64,000 nt of DNA from a virus (lineage: Duplodnaviria > Caudoviricetes). The notes beneath the pieces are model-generated. The model made no database searches. It saw only the letters and a list, made by a program, of their open reading frames with translations, and was not told the DNA's origin. The position numbers and the translations under genes are program-made. Where the stretch lies: IMG/VR virus record IMGVR_UViG_3300015606_001334, positions 128,001-192,000 of that record; one strand, 5' to 3'. Shown here piece by piece: positions 749 to 28,592 of this stretch (position 1 is the stretch's first letter; every line of letters begins with the position of its first letter).

Positions 749-873
749 GATAAACGAAAGTAGTAATCGAAAGATAGCGCCTTTCAGCGAACTATTTGAT
801 GGGCTTGAACCATCTAACACGTGGATTATTAGTCCTCTTGTATTAACCGATAATCAATTACTTGCGGTTTATC
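749..873 (-). ncRNA. Y-RNA-like ncRNA with T-arm (YrlA-like)
   Basis: GATAAAC-C-G / CGTTTATC helix, ATTATC motif, internal GATGG-TTCAAGC-CCATC T-arm. Confidence 0.75.
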
Positions 874-4458: not shown

Positions 4459-5124
4459 TTAAAATTTAATCTTTCTGCCTTCACCCCATCCATCAGGAAG
4501 ACATTCTATCTTTTTTATTTTCTTGGAAATTTTCAATTCTAGATTGTGAATCCATCTTAATCCAAATTGAGAATTATTTTCTCCGGCATTTTTAGACTTT
4601 TGCATTTTCTGTTTGGTCTCTTCACTATGAGTCTTTCCTAAGAATGCGGTATTTCCTTTTCCGCCGAATGGCTTTTCACCATTTTCAGAACGAAGTTTCC
4701 AAGCTTCTGATAAACTATTACTCACTTTCGACTTGTACGTCGGGTCTGAAGACATTTTATCTGAATGCGCTTTTACCCATTGCCAGCATCTCTTGTCTAT
4801 CTCTTCGCGAGACGAATTTACGTGATACCATCCACCTTCTCCTCCTTGACGAAGATTCATGCAGAGCTTGTCGCTAATCAATTCAATAGTAACAAGCTCT
4901 TTCTCTCTCGCTACTAAATCTTCTCTTGAAAAGTAGTGCTCAAGAATTTCCATTTCATGGTTTTCTTTACCATATTTGTTTATCGATTTCCACAAATATG
5001 TTCCACTTCCAAAATAACCGTCATTTAGGTTATCTGTTGAATGCATTCCAATGTAAAACTTACCATTAAGCTTATTGATGATTCGATAAATATAATGGTA
5101 CTTTCTTCTTGACGCTCTTGTCAT
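4459..5124 (-). CDS. GIY-YIG homing endonuclease (Seg-like, NUMOD3)
   Basis: YIYRIINKLNGKFYIGMH; GKTHSEETKQKM; TATAAATA upstream. Confidence 0.9.
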   Translation of the reverse strand: MTRASRRKYHYIYRIINKLNGKFYIGMHSTDNLNDGYFGSGTYLWKSINKYGKENHEMEILEHYFSREDLVAREKELVTIELISDKLCMNLRQGGEGGWYHVNSSREEIDKRCWQWVKAHSDKMSSDPTYKSKVSNSLSEAWKLRSENGEKPFGGKGNTAFLGKTHSEETKQKMQKSKNAGENNSQFGLRWIHNLELKISKKIKKIECLPDGWGEGRKIKF

Positions 5125-8277: not shown

Positions 8278-8482
8278 TCATACTTTAGCGTTCTGATGCT
8301 CGCTTTCCTGACTCAAGGATAATGTCCAATCGTCCGCCGTACTAGCGAGATTTCTCCTTGCTTAAGGGAGCAACGGTTTTAAGAGGTTAAGCGGACCTCT
8401 TCTTTGTGCCGTTCTTTTAGATTTGCCTTCAATTGTAATAACATCCGAAGATGCCTGGCTACATCAGAACGCTTAAGTATGA
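8278..8482 (-). ncRNA. orphan structured ncRNA (~205 nt)
   Basis: ~20-bp terminal helix, internal hairpins, TCCGC/GCGGA pseudoknot potential. Confidence 0.6.
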
Positions 8483-8504
8483 ATAGTCAATCATTACAAT
8501 TGAC

Positions 8505-8649
8505 TGGTGGAGCCGACGGGTCTCGAACCACGTACGTCGCAAGGACACCGGTTTTACCTTAGATAACCATTTTCTGTCGGCTTATTTCTAAGCAAAAGTT
8601 TGAAAACGACTTTTTTGACCGGCGCGTCTACCAATTTCGCCACGACTCC
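8505..8649 (-). ncRNA. tRNA-Leu-type body with Y-RNA-like module in anticodon loop
   Basis: Leu D-loop, variable arm, A-CCA; CCGGT/ACCGG stem encloses CTTTTGCTTA-GAAA-TAAGC-C-G...GGTTATC. Confidence 0.8.
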
Positions 8650-8652
8650 ATT

Positions 8653-8770
8653 CGGTGGGGAGGAGTGGGTTTGAACCACTGACCTTCAGCGGAATACTGA
8701 TCACCTCAAGGCGGCCGCCAGATGAATGTTCTTCCAAACGCTGATGCTCTACCAACTGAGCTACCTCCCC
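8653..8770 (-). ncRNA. tRNA-like RNA with ~49-nt anticodon-loop insertion
   Basis: Normal acceptor, D and T arms; TCAGC/GCTGA stem; ends A-CCG. Confidence 0.75.
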
Positions 8771-9430: not shown

Positions 9431-9558
9431 TGGTTGAGGCGGAAGGAATCGAACCTTCTCTAGTCGGATATGAGTCGAGATAACCATCCACGAGCGGCGT
9501 ATCTCTACGCAAAAGTTGCAGGCGATGTTTTCCTGTGCTGCCAGTACACTACGCCTCA
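9431..9558 (-). ncRNA. tRNA(CAT)-like body with Y-RNA-like module before the anticodon hairpin
   Basis: TGAGGCG/CGCCTCA-A-CCA; CTTTTGCGTA-GAGA-TACGC-C-G...GGTTATC, then CTCATAT loop and T-arm. Confidence 0.8.
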
Positions 9559-10623: not shown

Positions 10624-10751
10624 TGGTGCCCCGACCCGGGATCGAACCGGGATGACCGAAGTCGACAGATTTTCTTAAGCGGGCTCAGTCACTAAGTTTC
10701 AGAACCCGCTTCGTGAAAGTCTGTTGCGTCTACCAATTTCGCCATCGGGGC
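10624..10751 (-). ncRNA. tRNA-Leu body with hairpin insertion in anticodon loop (possible intron)
   Basis: Leu D-loop and variable arm, CCA; AAGCGGGTTC/GAGCCCGCTT helix inside the loop. Confidence 0.8.
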
Positions 10752-13010: not shown

Positions 13011-13152
13011 AGGTCTCCCTGGATGGACTCGAACCATCGGCCCCCATAATTCCGCAGCTTAAGATGAGTTGCTACCCATCTCCGAAAATTCCATTTCGAT
13101 TTGGTCCTTTACCATGAGCGGTGGAGAGCTCTACCAACTGAGCTACAGGAAG
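13011..13152 (-). ncRNA. tRNA-like RNA with ~70-nt structured anticodon-arm expansion
   Basis: Intact acceptor, D and T arms; ends A-CCT. Confidence 0.75.
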
Positions 13153-13985: not shown

Positions 13986-13990
13986 ATAAG

Positions 13991-14096
13991 ACTAACAAAA
14001 GTAGAAATTGACTAAAGTTGCATCCAGCATTCAAGAGGAGAATCGAACTCCTAACTCCATTTTCGCAGAATAGATAACCAATTTCAAGCGGTTAGC
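13991..14096 (-). ncRNA. YrlA-like Y RNA (T-arm, then D-like loop)
   Basis: GCTAAC-C-G / CTTTTGTTAGT, GGTTATC, AGGAG-TTCGATT-CTCCT. Confidence 0.8.
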
Positions 14097-14098
14097 TT

Positions 14099-14923: not shown

Positions 14924-14998
14924 TGGTGCCCAAGGTTGGAATCGAACCTACGACCTCTTTCGTACCAAGAAAGCGTTCTACCACTGAACTACGAGGGC
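14924..14998 (-). tRNA. tRNA-Thr(GGT)
   Basis: Loop TTGGTAC. Confidence 0.92.
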
Positions 14999-15008
14999 AT
15001 AAAATGTT

Positions 15009-15095
15009 TGGTGCTCTAGGAGGGACTCGAACCCTCACGTCCTTTCGGACACAACGACCTCAACGTTGCGCGTCTACCAATTCCGCCACCAGAGC
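15009..15095 (-). tRNA. tRNA-Leu(GAG)
   Basis: Loop TTGAGGT, variable arm. Confidence 0.95.
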
Positions 15096-16503: not shown

Positions 16504-16765
16504 GTCATTGACAAAATTTAGATATCGGATATTCAGAGAAAAGCGAACTTAACTCCTAGTTAGATGGGTCAGTCACCTAACAACCGCCTACTTATTCTTA
16601 GTAGGAAATATCGACGTTATTCTATGTCGACAATAATCAAATTGTAATCGAGGAGGAGCAAGCTCCTTGTTCCCTCTGTTGTCCGTCAATTTGAAAAAAT
16701 AGACAACATCTCAATTAAGGACGATCATTAGCTATTAAGATAACCAATATCTCGCGGTCAATGAT
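16504..16765 (-). ncRNA. Y-RNA-like ncRNA (long form)
   Basis: CATTGAC-C-G / TTTTGTCAATG, AGATATTGG/CCGATATCT, GTTATC. Confidence 0.75.
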
Positions 16766-17014: not shown

Positions 17015-17100
17015 TGGTGCACCAGGTAGGATTCGAACCTACTCACCCAGAGGGAACAGATTTACAGTCTGCCGTAACTCTCCAACTTTACCGCTAGTGC
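17015..17100 (-). tRNA. tRNA-Tyr(GTA)
   Basis: Loop CTGTAAA, variable arm. Confidence 0.92.
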
Positions 17101-17106
17101 AATACA

Positions 17107-17224
17107 ATCAAACAAAGATAAAAATCGAATTGCTGCGCCCAATTTCTTGCAGCTCATAAATCCGAAGACCTATGATGGAGTCGAACCATTCATCTGATAG
17201 ATAATCGATTTTCGACGGTTTGAT
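17107..17224 (-). ncRNA. YrlA-like Y RNA (complete permuted tRNA domain)
   Basis: Bulged-C helix, ATTATC, T-arm, acceptor-like stem closed by TTCG, D-like arm. Confidence 0.85.
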
Positions 17225-17310
17225 TGGTGGTCTATCTAGGTAACGATCCTAGCCAACCCGAAGGTATCAGTTTTACAGACTGCGCGGCGTCCTTAGCCGA
17301 ATACTAGACC
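17225..17310 (-). tRNA. atypical tRNA-Tyr(GTA)
   Basis: Loop CTGTAAA; non-canonical T-loop ATCGTTA. Confidence 0.75.
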
Positions 17311-17488: not shown

Positions 17489-17562
17489 TGGTTGCGGGCA
17501 GGGGAATCGAACCACCTTCCCAACTGGCTTATGAGACCAGCGTCAGACCTTCTGAACCCGCA
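17489..17562 (-). tRNA. tRNA-Met/Ile2(CAT), short D-arm
   Basis: Loop CTCATAA, A-CCA. Confidence 0.8.
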
Positions 17563-17569
17563 ATTGAGA

Positions 17570-17644
17570 GATAAACAAAGGAGTGGAAATTGGGGATTGG
17601 ATCAAAGTGGAAGTTTGAGATAACCAATTTCCTTTCGGTTTATC
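17570..17644 (-). ncRNA. minimal Y-RNA-like RNA with pyrimidine-rich loop
   Basis: GATAAAC-C-G / CTTTGTTTATC, GGAAATTGG/CCAATTTCC, GTTATC. Confidence 0.8.
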
Positions 17645-17735
17645 TGGCGGAGGCGGTGAGATTCGAACTCACGGACCTTTTTAGGGATCGGTAGTTTTCA
17701 AGACTACTGCGTTAAACCAGCTCTGCCACGCCTCC
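17645..17735 (-). tRNA. tRNA-Ser(TGA)
   Basis: Loop CTTGAAA, long variable arm, G-CCA. Confidence 0.95.
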
Positions 17736-18068
17736 ATTTTTACGATTCCTCGACTTGTAAGTACTCAACTGTGAATCACAATTGCTACAGACAAATCTTA
17801 GATTTTCTAATCTATTGTCGTTGTTAACACCGTTGATGTGGCCAAGAATTAATGGCATAGGTTTCCCTTGCCATTCAGGACCAATTCCACAGCATGCGCA
17901 ACGATATTCGATTAACTTTCCATCTAATATTCGACTCTTTACATGATGTCTAGCGAGAGTCGAATTTTCAGAAAAAACTTCTTCATCCGTCTTTCTTATC
18001 GACCGATGATACTCTGTTAATCCTGGTTTCTTTCCTTTATTCCAAGGGACACTTCCTTTTGATGCCAT
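17712..18068 (-). CDS. HNH endonuclease
   Basis: CACCG...HINGVNNDNRLENLRFVCSNC. Confidence 0.85.
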   Translation of the reverse strand: MASKGSVPWNKGKKPGLTEYHRSIRKTDEEVFSENSTLARHHVKSRILDGKLIEYRCACCGIGPEWQGKPMPLILGHINGVNNDNRLENLRFVCSNCDSQLSTYKSRNRKNGGVAELV

Positions 18069-18128: not shown

Positions 18129-18192
18129 AATCAAACAAAAAGCGATGATCGACGCTTTTCCAATAAGATAACCAATCATCAACGGTTTGATT
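18129..18192 (-). ncRNA. minimal (64 nt) Y-RNA-like RNA
   Basis: AATCAAAC-C-G / TTTTTGTTTGATT, GATGATTGG/TCGATCATC, GTTATC. Confidence 0.8.
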
Positions 18193-18283: not shown

Positions 18284-18290
18284 ATTGTAA

Positions 18291-18400
18291 ACTAACAAAA
18301 ATAGATATCGAGTAATGCGGCACCCAGCTTCCAAATCGGGAATCGAACCCAATCCTTCGTTTTTTCCATAAAAAGAGATAACCGATATCAAGCGGTTAGT
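18291..18400 (-). ncRNA. YrlA-like Y RNA
   Basis: ACTAAC-C-G / TTTTTGTTAGT, GGTTATC, T-arm TTGGG-TTCGATT-CCCGA. Confidence 0.8.
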
Positions 18401-18476
18401 TGGTTGCGGGAGTTGGACTTGCACCAACCTTGGCCAGCTTATGAGACTGGTGATGAACTTTCTCCTCTATCCCGCA
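18401..18476 (-). tRNA. atypical tRNA-Met/Ile2(CAT)
   Basis: Loop CTCATAA, T-loop TGCAAGT. Confidence 0.75.
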
Positions 18477-18483
18477 ATCAAAA

Positions 18484-18599
18484 GATAAACAAAACTAGTA
18501 ATCGATGAACCTCTTTCGAGGGTGAAGGGCTTGAACCTTCTAACTTGTGGATGATTAGTCCTCTCGTATTATCCGATAACCAATTACTCACGGTTTATC
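18484..18599 (-). ncRNA. Y-RNA-like RNA with T-arm; paralogue of 749-873
   Basis: Same helix and GAGGACTAAT...TCCAC segment. Confidence 0.8.
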
Positions 18600-18982: not shown

Positions 18983-19043
18983 GGACTCGAACCCACAACC
19001 TCGACATTAAAAGTGTCTTGCTCTACCATTGAGCTAATCTCCC
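18969..19043 (-). tRNA. tRNA-Lys(TTT)
   Basis: Loop CTTTTAA. Confidence 0.92.
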
Positions 19044-19055
19044 ATTAAATGAATC

Positions 19056-19130
19056 TGGTGGTCGATGCTGGATTTGAACCAGCGACCTATCGCTTATCAA
19101 GCGAGTGCTCTACCACTGAGCTAATCGACC
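19056..19130 (-). tRNA. tRNA-Ile(GAT)
   Basis: Loop TTGATAA. Confidence 0.95.
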
Positions 19131-19169: not shown

Positions 19170-19298
19170 CGGTGCAGTCTGAAGGAATCGAACCTCCGTC
19201 TTCGCCTTGTAATGGATAACCATTTTCAAGCGGTTCATTTTCATGAACAAATTCAGAAAACGATGTTTATCGCTGTTCTACCACTGAACTAAGACTGC
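19170..19298 (-). ncRNA. tRNA-Val(TAC)-like body with Y-RNA-like module
   Basis: TTTGTTCAT-GAAA-ATGAAC-C-G...GGTTATC, then CC-ATTACAA-GG; ends A-CCG. Confidence 0.8.
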
Positions 19299-19353: not shown

Positions 19354-19482
19354 AGGTGGAGAGTAGAGGATTCGAACCTCTGACCACGTGCTTAACAGGC
19401 AGATAACCAATTTCGGCCGGTTTGAGCAAACAAACAAAGAGTGAAATCGACATTTACGTGCTCTACCACTGAGCTAACTCCC
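19354..19482 (-). ncRNA. tRNA(GTT)-like body with Y-RNA-like module in anticodon stem
   Basis: ACG-[insert ending GGTTATC]-TGC-CTGTTAA-GCACGT; ends A-CCT. Confidence 0.8.
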
Positions 19483-19563
19483 CAACAAAATCAGCAAGAT
19501 GACACCACTTGGTATACGTGGCTAATTAAGCATTATGTCCCCACAAATGCTCATCTTCGCTGA

Positions 19564-19921: not shown

Positions 19922-20103
19922 AATTTGTTTTGTTCTGACTGCTGGACTCGAACCAGCACTACGTTCCTGGCCGCAGCCAGTGCATTACCAGTTATGCTAC
20001 TCGGGGCGGACCCCAAGGTTGGATTCGAACCAACATTTGAACAACCGCAGAATCAAAGATGCGGCGCGTCTACCAATTTCGCCAAGTCAGAACAAAACAA
20101 ATT
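19922..20103 (-). ncRNA. double-elbow fused tRNA mimic
   Basis: D1-AC1-T1-hairpin-D2-AC2-T2 closed by a 19-bp perfect helix. Confidence 0.8.
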
Positions 20104-20313: not shown

Positions 20314-20399
20314 TGGCGGAGACGGTGGGAATCGAACCCACTGAACCTTTCGGTCCTACACCTTAGCAGGGTGCTGCATTACCGGCCTGCCCCGTCTCC
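20314..20399 (-). tRNA. tRNA-Ser(GCT)
   Basis: Loop CTGCTAA, variable arm, G-CCA. Confidence 0.92.
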
Positions 20400-21055
20400 A
20401 ATTTTCTTCCTGCTTTCCAACCTTGATTTTCCCAAGATTGAAGTTCATCTTTCTTTATCTTCTTCGCTTCGGAACCATTGTTTATCCAACAAGTACCAAA
20501 TTGAGAATTCTTTTCACCTCTTACTGCTTCCTTCATCGAAGAACTAATTTTTATCTTAGTTTCCTCTTTATGGGTTTTTCCTGTCCAATCTCCAGAAGGA
20601 ACCTTCCCATACTTTTTCATCTTACCTTCTATGCCACGACGATGCCGCTCTTTTGCGGCCTCTGATCCTTTACTAAATATCTCAGCTCTTTTACTTCCAC
20701 CAGCTGAAGACCTAGCGATTTGAATCCTGTTTCGCTCTACATCATCTGAATTGATATGATCCCAACCACCTTCTCCACCAAACTTCAAGTTCATGCAGAG
20801 CGGGTGTTTCAACATCTCCTCGTTTACTACTTCAGCTTCTCTCTTCTTGAGTTCTTCTCTTGAAGGTAGAAACTCTAAAATCTCAAACTTGTGGTTTTCC
20901 AACCCATATTTCCGGATCGAATAACCTAACCTCTTTCCACTTCCTACATAACCATCTTCCAAGTTATCCGTTGAGTGCATCCCAACGTAGAACTTTTCAT
21001 TCAGAAGATTTGTGGTCCTATAAATGAAGTGGTACTTCTTTTGTTTCCTTGGCAT
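20363..21055 (-). CDS. GIY-YIG homing endonuclease, paralogue of 4459-5124
   Basis: FIYRTTNLLNEKFYVGMHSTDNL; GKTHKEETK; TATAAATA upstream. Confidence 0.9.
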   Translation of the reverse strand: MPRKQKKYHFIYRTTNLLNEKFYVGMHSTDNLEDGYVGSGKRLGYSIRKYGLENHKFEILEFLPSREELKKREAEVVNEEMLKHPLCMNLKFGGEGGWDHINSDDVERNRIQIARSSAGGSKRAEIFSKGSEAAKERHRRGIEGKMKKYGKVPSGDWTGKTHKEETKIKISSSMKEAVRGEKNSQFGTCWINNGSEAKKIKKDELQSWENQGWKAGRKLETGQAGNAAPC

Positions 21056-28007: not shown

Positions 28008-28035
28008 TTTATTGTTCTTATTATGGAAGTGAGGG

Positions 28036-28420
28036 TGGGGAAATGTTTCTGTTGCCAAGTACAACTTCCCCAAAAACTCCGACAGCTTTACCTATTTAAA
28101 GGATCAAGCAGCCACGCGGTAACTTTCGTCGTTTGCGTTTAACTTTTTTCTTCCACTAACGCAGGTTGCTCTCGAGTCGTTCCAATCTTGTTACTCATGC
28201 CATGTCGAGACCTGTCGACCCCATTAAAAAGAAACCTAGTATGACGATCACGTTCTCTTACTCTTTCGTCATCCTGCCTTGCCTTCTCATAGGTAAGATC
28301 GAAGAACGATCCATCTTACCTCGGGCGACCTCCTTGCGAGAGGACTTGGTTTCTTTTTGGTGGAGTCGAGGGGAATCGAACCCCTTTCCACAACACTTTC
28401 CCAATCAAAGTCTCAGGTAT
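28036..28420 (-). ncRNA. ssrA: two-piece (circularly permuted) tmRNA, tag (A)ANDESYRVAA*
   Basis: Acceptor piece ...GGGTTCGATTCCCCTCGACTCCACCA (28358-28420) precedes the GGGGTCGA...CTCGAC 5' piece (from 28222); tag frame 28136-28104; G3:U70. Confidence 0.9.
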
Positions 28421-28592
28421 TTCTACCCATACGACTATAAAAACTCTCGGTCATTCTTTCGATCGTCTTCCCATTTATCCCAGTTGTAATGAAAGATGGA
28501 ATAAATCCAACCACCAACACAACCAATGATTGTTACAACAACGAGAAGTTTTTCTACTTGATCAACCATGAAAAGAATTATATCACTATTTA

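What the first reader, a model, noticed from the sequence alone, without database searches (positions are those of the whole stretch)
17107..17224. Textbook YrlA topology alongside degenerate versions
Seen: Ro stem, then T-arm (ATGG-TTCGACT-CCAT), acceptor-like stem sealed by TTCG (CATAGGTC/GATTTATG), then D-like arm (GCTGC..TTGG..GCAGC). 13991-14096 and 18291-18400 keep T- and D-like loops but lose the acceptor stem, and 17570 and 18129 lose the whole tRNA domain. This graded series in one genome anchors the Y-RNA interpretation.
Basis: partly seen in the sequence, partly recalled or inferred. Interest (0 to 1): 0.7.

Follow-up and report, generated by a model that had tools for sequence, protein, structure and literature searches.

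The report
Phage Y RNA among tRNA genes
Among the tRNA genes of a 360-kb phage lies a small RNA built like a bacterial Y RNA (a long closing stem carrying a scrambled tRNA), one of a multi-copy family whose stem sits just in front of Ro60 genes in many other phages, so it is very probably a partner RNA of the phage's own Ro60 protein.

Summary
On the minus strand, 17107-17224 folds into a two-part closing stem, a T arm, an 8-bp UUCG-capped acceptor-like hairpin and a D-like arm.

The closing stem ("handle") is a conserved module. It has an outer helix ending AAC/GUU, a bulge (5' CGNNN, 3' U-rich), an 8-bp inner helix, then UUAUC. It occurs at least 11 times, only on the tRNA strand of the array, with strong covariation.

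The phage (359,550 bp) encodes a genuine Ro60 about 95 kb away. A model built only from tRNA-array copies hits the kilobase upstream of Ro60 genes in dozens of other viral contigs. At eight or more of those places Rfam's YrlA model also scores, below threshold.

The finding's own copy gets no YrlA hit. I file it as a divergent phage variant of YrlA-type Y RNAs, not a proven member. Ro60 binding is inferred, not shown.

The same handle also sits closed inside otherwise complete tRNAs, which is the most novel aspect.

This scan had already noted the family in this genome. On other DNA it noted Ro60-like proteins paired with handle RNAs, apparently a different handle and protein family.

The parts
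17107..17224 (-). The finding: a 118-nt YrlA-like RNA, a handle plus a permuted tRNA-like domain.
   Evidence: MFE fold. Seed of model R1, 71.8 bits in the own-genome scan. Orthologues in G003 and G002.
17218..17224 (-). Handle, outer helix 5' strand (AUCAAAC). It starts directly after the CCA of the upstream tRNA-like gene.
   Evidence: Pairs with 17107-17113. Four of 7 outer-helix pairs change on both sides; the AAC/GUU end is invariant.
17213..17217 (-). Handle bulge, 5' side (CGUCG). CG is invariant in the family. With the following bases it reads GUCGAA, matching GNCGAA.
   Evidence: Alignment A3. Motif GNCGAAN0-1G from PMC4201824; CGAA bulge of the phiLo Yrl RNAs, PMC12135203.
17205..17212 (-). 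Handle, inner helix 5' strand (AAAAUCGA). It stands where a tRNA has its anticodon stem.
   Evidence: Pairs with 17121-17128. Seven of 8 inner-helix pairs change on both sides.
17190..17204 (-). UUAUC motif plus linker (UUAUCUAUCAGAUGA). It can form a 4-bp mini-hairpin where a class II variable arm would be.
   Evidence: UUAUC is near-invariant in A3. The linker is conserved in the orthologues.
17175..17189 (-). T arm, AUGG-UUCGACU-CCAT in DNA letters. The loop has U54 U55 C56 G57 A58.
   Evidence: Identical in the G002 and G003 orthologues. The T-arm columns covary across the family.
17155..17174 (-). Acceptor-like hairpin, 8 bp closed by UUCG.
   Evidence: The orthologues have 8-bp hairpins of unrelated sequence (GGAGUCUC-GAAA-GGGAUUCC; CCCGCAGC-CACAA-GCUAAGGG).
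17132..17153 (-). D-like arm, GCUGC-AAGAAAUUGGGC-GCAGC, with GG in the loop.
   Evidence: The orthologues have GCUCC-AGUCGG-GGAGC, one compensatory pair change.
17107..17128 (-). Handle 3' strand: inner helix UCGAUUUU, U-rich bulge UAUCUUU, outer helix GUUUGAU.
17015..17100 (-). Downstream tRNA-Tyr (GUA), 6 nt after the handle. RNase P cleavage at its 5' end would set the 3' end of the Y-like RNA.
   Evidence: ARAGORN and Rfam tRNA. The processing step is inferred.
17225..17310 (-). Upstream unannotated tRNA-Tyr-like gene (GUA loop, class II variable arm, odd T loop AUCGUUA) ending in CCA flush with the handle.
   Evidence: Cloverleaf MFE fold. Not called by ARAGORN or Rfam.
18484..18599 (-). 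Sister copy: handle, anticodon-like arm, T arm and a GAAA mini-hairpin. No D arm.
   Evidence: R1 82.4 bits.
18290..18401 (-). Sister copy: handle, T arm and one small hairpin.
   Evidence: R1 90.7 bits.
18130..18191 (-). Bare handle (62 nt), 1 nt after tRNA-Asn.
   Evidence: R1 46 bits; not in the seed.
17570..17644 (-). Bare handle (75 nt), flush with the CCA of tRNA-Ser.
   Evidence: R1 35 bits; not in the seed.
13990..14097 (-). Sister copy: handle, T arm and one small hairpin, between tRNA-Asn and tRNA-Gly.
   Evidence: R1 85.5 bits.
749..873 (-). Sister copy, a paralogue of 18484-18599, between tRNA-Ile and tRNA-Gly.
   Evidence: R1 85.7 bits.
16506..16763 (-). Probable handle enclosing a 217-nt insert.
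   Evidence: My helix descriptor finds 15 of 15 pairs. R1 did not list it.
19357..19483 (-). Chimeric tRNA-Asn (GUU). The closed handle (3' strand, loop, 5' strand) is inserted in the 5' strand of the anticodon stem.
   Evidence: Rfam tRNA 49.5 bits over 127 nt; sequence reading.
19173..19298 (-). Chimeric tRNA-Val (UAC) with a closed handle at the same place.
   Evidence: Rfam tRNA 46.9 bits over 126 nt.

Best explanation
The 118-nt element is a phage-encoded Y RNA of the YrlA type.

Its two-part closing stem (the handle) consists of an outer helix, a bulge beginning CG, an inner helix and UUAUC. It is the docking site for the phage's own Ro60/Rsr ring protein. This step is inferred.

The domain the stem carries is a circularly permuted tRNA body: a T arm, a capped acceptor stem and a D arm, with the inner helix in place of the anticodon stem. 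That domain presents a tRNA elbow to some tRNA-binding effector, or acts as a tRNA look-alike. This step is also inferred.

The RNA is made as part of the polycistronic tRNA transcript and released by ordinary tRNA processing. Its 5' end would come from 3' maturation of the flush upstream tRNA. Its 3' end would come from RNase P cutting 4-7 nt downstream, at the next tRNA. The flush arrangement is shown; the processing is inferred.

The genome holds a graded set of such RNAs: a full tRNA-like domain, a T arm only, and a bare handle. This parallels YrlA and YrlB in bacteria and would give Ro60 several alternative adaptors.
For: 1. The layout is shown by the MFE fold. Orthologues in two other phages keep the T arm and replace the acceptor-like hairpin and one D-stem pair by compensating changes.

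2. Handle covariation over 12 copies from four phages: 94% of cells paired against 28-49% in slid controls, 15 of 20 pairs with double changes, and 0 of 500 shuffles reach the observed values.

3. Model R1 finds copies only in the tRNA array of the own genome. It finds 37 more places in five related records.

4. The phage has a genuine Ro60.

5. The handle lies immediately upstream of the Ro60 gene, with no tRNA nearby, in G003, G004 and G005.

6. In 80 viral Ro60 loci, 44 of 60 R1 hits fall in the 1 kb upstream on the same strand, which is 5.7% of the space searched.

7. Rfam YrlA scores the same RNAs at 33-55 bits at eight or more R1 places, and one array copy in G005 at 39 bits.

8. Y RNAs encoded next to rsr, a stem-bulge-stem with a CGAA-type bulge, and tRNA-like domains are the published signature of bacterial and phage Y RNAs (PMC4201824, PMC12135203, bioRxiv 10.1101/312249).

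9. Handles begin 0-2 nt after the upstream CCA and end 4-7 nt before the next tRNA.
Against: - This copy gets no Rfam YrlA hit, even at E <= 10 on a 151-nt search.
- It lies about 95 kb from the Ro60 gene, and that gene has no handle beside it in this genome.
- Only the CG of the published GNCGAAN0-1G motif is conserved in the family.
- The Ro60 loci are related to one another, so the positional statistic overstates independence.
- No expression, binding or modification data exist for this uncultivated phage.
- The handle also occurs inside apparently intact tRNAs, which a pure Ro60-adaptor model does not predict.
Confidence: 0.7

Rival explanations
1. The handle is an intron-like or processing module, recognised by an endonuclease and ligase pathway rather than by Ro60. 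The free-standing copies would then be permuted or decayed leftovers of interrupted tRNA genes.
For: - The closed handle interrupts the anticodon stem of otherwise complete tRNAs in at least five phages. Canonical 7-nt anticodon loops and 5-bp stems are restored if it is removed, and the 3' junction is mostly UUAU|C.
- Other tRNAs of the array carry unrelated 40-65-nt insertions.
- The phage has Rnl1-type and Rnl2-type RNA ligases.
- 'Enigmatic' tRNA introns are reported in Lak megaphages (PMC6784885).
Against: - The genome has no tRNA splicing endonuclease and no RtcB.
- The 5' junction sits 1-5 nt from the module, which is not a fixed distance.
- This reading does not explain handles upstream of Ro60 genes with no tRNA nearby, nor their overlap with YrlA hits.
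- The finding's copy has no anticodon arm to restore.
Confidence: 0.12
2. The handle is an RNase III-type or similar processing and stability signal for polycistronic phage transcripts. It would resemble the stem, internal loop and stem sites of T7 early RNA. The tRNA-like pieces would be incidental.
For: - Two helices of 7-8 bp are separated by an asymmetric internal loop.
- The handle lies between genes of a long co-directional transcript, and in the 5' region of Ro60 genes.
Against: - The conserved unpaired bases (CG, U-run, UUAUC) and the regular attachment of a T arm (12 of 12 in A3) are not features of RNase III sites.
- The association is specific to Ro60 genes rather than to intergenic regions in general.
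Confidence: 0.08
3. These are decaying tRNA pseudogenes and a selfish repeat with no function.
For: - Phage tRNA arrays turn over quickly.
- Homing endonuclease genes lie in the array.
- Several copies are reduced forms.
Against: - Copies share structure but not helix sequence: mean column identity is 42% with compensatory changes. This indicates selection on the fold rather than recent spread.
- Orthologues are kept across phages whose Ro60 proteins are only about 50% identical.
Confidence: 0.05

Closest known systems
YrlA (Rfam RF02553), the tRNA-like Y RNA bound by bacterial Rsr. See Chen et al. 2014 (PMC4201824) and the structure paper bioRxiv 10.1101/312249.
   Same: - The order of parts: long 5'/3' stem with an asymmetric bulge, T arm, loop-closed acceptor-like stem, D arm.
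- The T loop UUCGA and GG in the D loop.
- Encoded with a Ro60 gene in the genome. Family members lie just upstream of Ro60 genes and score 33-55 bits with RF02553.
- Reduced sister RNAs exist, like YrlB.
   Different: - This copy does not score with RF02553 at all.
- The handle sequence is its own: AAC|CGNNN, AUUGG, UUAUC and a U-rich 3' bulge. Only CG of GNCGAAN0-1G is kept.
- There are 7-12 copies per genome, spread through a tRNA array and flush with tRNAs, about 95 kb from the Ro60 gene.
- The T and D stem sequences, which are strongly conserved in YrlA, are not conserved here.
Yrl1 and Yrl2 of Thermus phage phiLo, which bind phage Ro60 (PMC12135203).
   Same: - They are phage-encoded and lie upstream of the phage Ro60 gene.
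- They have a stem-bulge-stem with a CG(AA) bulge.
- They are proposed to co-opt a host enzyme through Ro60.
   Different: - The phiLo Ro60 is only distantly related: E = 5e-7 to 9KOP, against 1e-102 to D. radiodurans Rsr.
- No tRNA-array context or tRNA chimeras are reported there.
Circularly permuted and intron-bearing tRNA genes: archaeal and Cyanidioschyzon BHB introns (PMC3978253) and the 'enigmatic' Lak megaphage tRNA introns (PMC6784885).
   Same: The same module occurs both in an inserted arrangement (in the anticodon stem) and in a permuted arrangement relative to a tRNA body.
   Different: - No BHB motif could be defined, and the genome has no splicing endonuclease or RtcB.
- The finding's copy lacks an anticodon arm, so it cannot yield a tRNA.
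Ro60-like (DUF2828-type) proteins with 'handle' RNAs in tRNA arrays of Felix O1-type and other phages, noted earlier in this scan (for example e1-272486).
   Same: A Ro-like ring protein is paired with several small RNAs that share one closing stem and sit among tRNA genes.
   Different: - Here the protein is a canonical TROVE plus vWA_Ro60 Ro60.
- The handle appears to be different; those notes liken theirs to the Dictyostelium Class I motif.
- I did not compare the sequences.

Membership tests
YrlA (Rfam RF02553) | Scores at or above the gathering threshold (69 bits) with the covariance model. | tested here: not met
   There is no hit at E <= 10 on 17090-17240. Homologous family members reach 33-55 bits. 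The weak YrlA hits inside the window are tandem-tRNA junction artefacts.
YrlA (Rfam RF02553) | Layout: 5'/3' closing stem, T arm, loop-closed acceptor-like stem, D arm. | tested here: met
   MFE fold. Compensatory changes in the orthologues.
YrlA (Rfam RF02553) | Encoded within about 4 kb of a Ro60/rsr gene (criterion of Chen 2014). | tested here: not met
   The Ro60 gene is at G000:C1:47688-49322, about 95 kb away, with no handle beside it. The criterion is met by family members in G003, G004, G005 and many other viral loci.
YrlA (Rfam RF02553) | GNCGAAN0-1G motif near the 5' end. | tested here: inconclusive
   This copy has GUCGAA followed by AA, with no closing G. Across the family only CG is invariant.
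YrlA (Rfam RF02553) | tRNA elbow bases: T loop U54 U55 C56 R57 A58 and two G in the D loop. | tested here: met
   The T loop is UUCGACU and the D loop is AAGAAAUUGGGC. The contact itself is not testable with these tools.
YrlA (Rfam RF02553) | Bound by Rsr, and carries tRNA-type modifications (TruB, DusA). | not testable with these tools
   This needs RIP or EMSA and modification mapping.
Metazoan Y RNA (RF00019) | Conserved bulged helix GGUCCGA/UUGACUA. | tested here: not met
   There is no Rfam hit. The sequence shows no such helix.
tRNA (RF00005) | Cloverleaf with an open acceptor stem and an anticodon arm. | tested here: not met
   There is no ARAGORN or Rfam tRNA call at 17107-17224. The acceptor stem is capped and the anticodon arm is absent.
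BHB-type tRNA intron or permuted tRNA gene | A splicing endonuclease is present, and a functional tRNA is restored after excision and ligation. | tested here: not met
   PF01974 and PF01139 are absent from the genome. The finding's copy has no anticodon arm.

The most novel reading that the evidence does not exclude
The handle is a portable Ro60-docking module that this phage group grafts onto tRNA bodies in both topologies, including complete tRNAs that look able to decode (Asn GUU, Val UAC, Tyr GUA, CAU). In those it sits closed in the anticodon stem. Two outcomes follow. Either Ro60 is recruited directly to phage tRNAs, as a Ro60-based tRNA surveillance, repair or anti-defence decoy system working with the phage Rnl1/Rnl2 ligases. 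Or the 'enigmatic introns' of huge-phage tRNAs are Ro60 handles removed by an unknown bacterial or phage splicing route.
Probability: 0.25. Interest if true: 0.85.

Novelty: new variant of a known kind. Interest (0 to 1): 0.58.

Why it matters
Bacterial and phage Y RNAs are known, but their effectors and purpose remain open, especially the role of the tRNA-like domain.

This phage lineage offers a natural series on one shared handle: a full tRNA mimic, a T arm only, a bare handle, and whole tRNAs carrying the handle. All are made inside a tRNA operon, in a genome that also encodes a Ro60 very close to the structurally solved ones.

That makes two questions directly testable with a few constructs. 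Which part binds Ro60? What does the tRNA part recruit?

It also shows that Rfam's YrlA model misses a large phage branch of the family. Unannotated spacers in phage tRNA arrays may therefore often be Y RNAs.

Tried and rejected
- **Rfam on the finding itself.** No YrlA hit. The window's weak YrlA hits (19967-20051, 14944-15066, 18985-19111) are T-arm/D-arm junctions of adjacent tRNAs, the false-positive type described by Chen 2014.
- **Megablast of the array against 50,697 phage records.** Only single-tRNA matches; no close cultured relative.
- **A 14-base pattern scan of IMG/VR.** Mostly chance matches; only about 7 of 116 stretches were real relatives.
- **MAFFT alignments of bare handles (A1, A2).** They shifted the outer helix and were not used.
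- **Intron reading.** RtcB and the tRNA splicing endonuclease are absent. The 3' junction is regular, but the 5' junction varies by 1-5 nt, and two chimeras could not be resolved by hand.
- **Own Ro60 locus.** No handle within about 1.5 kb on either side.
- **Likeness of UUAUCU to the same letters in human Y1.** I judged it coincidental, from memory of that sequence, and did not test it.

Full report
**Context.** The window is G000:C1:128001-192000 of a 359,550-bp virus record, which CheckV estimates to be 100% complete. Bases 240-21,200 hold a minus-strand tRNA array. ARAGORN tRNAs there and Rfam finds several more. A permuted tmRNA lies at 28013-28450. Homing-endonuclease genes are interspersed in the array. 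No close cultured relative exists in the phage collection.

**The observation.** In RNA sense (minus strand), 17224 to 17107 reads in this order:
- outer helix AUCAAAC/GUUUGAU
- bulge CGUCG on the 5' side and UAUCUUU on the 3' side
- inner helix AAAAUCGA/UCGAUUUU
- linker UUAUCUAUCAGAUGA
- T arm AUGG-UUCGACU-CCAU
- hairpin CAUAGGUC-UUCG-GAUUUAUG
- a single A
- D-like arm GCUGC-AAGAAAUUGGGC-GCAGC
- AAU

The unconstrained MFE fold reproduces this layout (-37.1 kcal/mol, z = -3.1). The element fills the whole spacer between two tRNAs. It starts directly after the CCA of an unannotated tRNA-Tyr-like gene (17225-17310). It ends 6 nt before tRNA-Tyr (17015-17100).

**The handle is a defined, conserved module.** The 5'-strand motif CCG-N4-9-AUNGNUUAUC occurs nine times on the minus strand, all inside the array. 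Looser copies lie at 8561, 9478 and 19215. Only two stray matches occur in the other 340 kb.

Pairing each 5' strand with its best partner gave a uniform anatomy:
- an outer helix that always ends AAC/GUU
- a 5' bulge that begins CG
- a 3' bulge that ends in a run of U
- an 8-bp inner helix ending AUUGG/YCGAU
- then UUAUC

A MAFFT alignment of 12 open copies from four phages (A3) aligned both strands, and a T arm is present in all 12. On that alignment 94.1% of cells pair, against 28-49% when the partner is slid. Fifteen of 20 pairs change on both sides, and no shuffle out of 500 reaches any observed measure.

The covariance model R1 built from A3 finds seven strong matches in the own genome, all in the array and all on the minus strand. 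Two of them are bare handles that were not in the seed. R1 finds 37 further places in five related records, G001-G005.

**Orthologues of the finding's copy.** G003:74050-74163 and L024:6922-7037 (L226 is identical to the latter) share the linker and the exact T arm. Their 8-bp acceptor-like hairpins have unrelated sequences (GGAGUCUC-GAAA-GGGAUUCC and CCCGCAGC-CACAA-GCUAAGGG). Their D-like arm is GCUCC-AGUCGG-GGAGC. The YrlA-like layout is therefore maintained by selection on structure and is not a one-off.

**Link to Ro60.**
- The genome encodes a 545-aa Ro60: TROVE 138 bits, vWA_Ro60 191 bits. It matches D. radiodurans Rsr 2NVO at E = 1e-102 and vertebrate Ro60 at about 1e-100.
- In this genome the gene has only a 95-nt upstream gap and no handle.
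- In G003, G004 and G005 the 460-520-nt gap just upstream of the Ro60 gene holds one or two handles on the same strand. No tRNA lies in those loci.
- I fetched 80 viral loci encoding Ro60 relatives of 42-93% identity and scanned them with R1. Of 60 hits at E <= 1, 59 are on the Ro60 strand and 44 lie within 1 kb upstream of the gene. That zone is 5.7% of the space searched (binomial tail about 1e-41). The loci are related to one another, so this figure is only an indication.
- R1 was built only from tRNA-array copies, so the scan is an independent test of the association.

**Link to YrlA.** Rfam's YrlA model gives no hit on the finding's copy. It does score an array copy in G005 at 39 bits. 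It also scores at least eight of the R1 places upstream of Ro60 genes at 33-55 bits, below its 69-bit threshold. The two models recognise the same RNAs from different ends: R1 through the handle and T arm, RF02553 mostly through the tRNA-like domain. The family is therefore a divergent phage branch of YrlA-type Y RNAs.

Published work agrees with this reading. It reports Y RNAs upstream of rsr in more than 250 bacteria and in 22 phages, a stem-bulge-stem with a CGAA-type motif, a tRNA-like domain resembling a circularly permuted tRNA, and a smaller YrlB that carries a T arm.

**Mechanism, with status of each step.**
- Shown: the fold, its conservation, its flush position between tRNAs, and the genomic association of the handle with Ro60 genes.
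- Inferred: the handle binds Ro60.
- Inferred: the RNA is cut out of the tRNA precursor by tRNA 3' maturation upstream and RNase P downstream. This would leave a short 3' tail (UGUAUU here).
- Inferred: the tRNA-like domain forms an elbow that engages a tRNA-binding factor.
- Speculation: the 8-bp capped stem stacked on the T arm could be an RNase P substrate, as in M. smegmatis YrlA.

**The unexpected part.** The same handle occurs closed (3' strand, loop, 5' strand) inside otherwise complete tRNAs. Examples in the window are 19357-19483 (Asn GUU), 19173-19298 (Val UAC), about 8480-8650 and 9431-9558. Further examples occur in L072, L024, L060 and L032.

In these tRNAs the handle interrupts the 5' strand of the anticodon stem between positions 27 and 30. 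In six of eight cases, removing it restores a 5-bp stem and a canonical 7-nt loop. The 3' junction is mostly UUAU|C, while the 5' junction varies.

The genome lacks RtcB and a splicing endonuclease. It does have Rnl1-type and Rnl2-type ligases. Whether the chimeras are spliced or act as Ro60-bearing tRNAs is open. Lak megaphage tRNA introns are the only reported parallel I found.

**Earlier notes in this scan.** First-stage notes on this genome (e1-5656157, e1-5656176, e1-5656160) describe the same family, and I reached the same anatomy independently. Notes on other genomes describe Ro60-like DUF2828 proteins paired with handle RNAs in tRNA arrays. I did not test whether that handle is related to this one.

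**Verdict.** Strict YrlA membership of this copy is not shown. I file it as a new variant of a known kind.

Noticed in passing
window 19357-19483, 19173-19298, about 8480-8650, 9431-9558 (all minus strand); also L072, L024, L060, L032: These are complete tRNAs (Asn GUU, Val UAC, a class II body, CAU) with the closed Ro-type handle inserted in the 5' strand of the anticodon stem. The 3' junction is mostly UUAU|C. It is unknown whether they are spliced or remain as chimeras.
   Followed up: partly
window 8656-8770, 10627-10751, 13014-13152 (minus strand): Three more tRNAs of 115-139 nt carry 40-65-nt hairpin insertions of other, unrelated sequence in the anticodon arm. These are further intron-like elements in a bacterial virus.
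   Followed up: no
window 17225-17310 (minus strand): An unannotated tRNA-Tyr-like gene with a GUA loop, a class II variable arm, a non-canonical T loop AUCGUUA and an encoded CCA. Both ARAGORN and Rfam miss it. Similar weak tRNA-like genes with CAU loops lie at 17492-17562 and 18404-18476.
   Followed up: partly
window 28013-28450 (minus strand): A phage-encoded two-piece (permuted) tmRNA with the tag ANDESYRVAA. Rfam tmRNA_permuted scores it at 94.6 bits.
   Followed up: no
window 19967-20051 and 14944-15066 (minus strand): Rfam YrlA scores 28-29 bits on the junction of two adjacent tRNAs (T arm of one, D arm of the next). This is a known false-positive type and shows how tandem tRNAs mimic the YrlA layout.
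   Followed up: yes
window 4459-5124, 20363-21055, 17712-18068 (minus strand): GIY-YIG/NUMOD3 (Seg-like) and HNH homing endonuclease genes are interspersed in the tRNA array.
   Followed up: no
G000:C1:4277-4876, 86574-87218, 95088-95600 (outside the window): The genome has one Rnl1-type and two Rnl2-type RNA ligase genes. Together with Ro60 they form a sizeable RNA-repair toolkit. RtcB is absent.
   Followed up: no
L215, L223, L212, L225 (viral Ro60 loci): In several unrelated phage contigs, tRNA genes, YrlA-like RNAs and the Ro60 gene form one co-directional block. The separation of Ro60 from the array in this genome looks secondary.
   Followed up: partly
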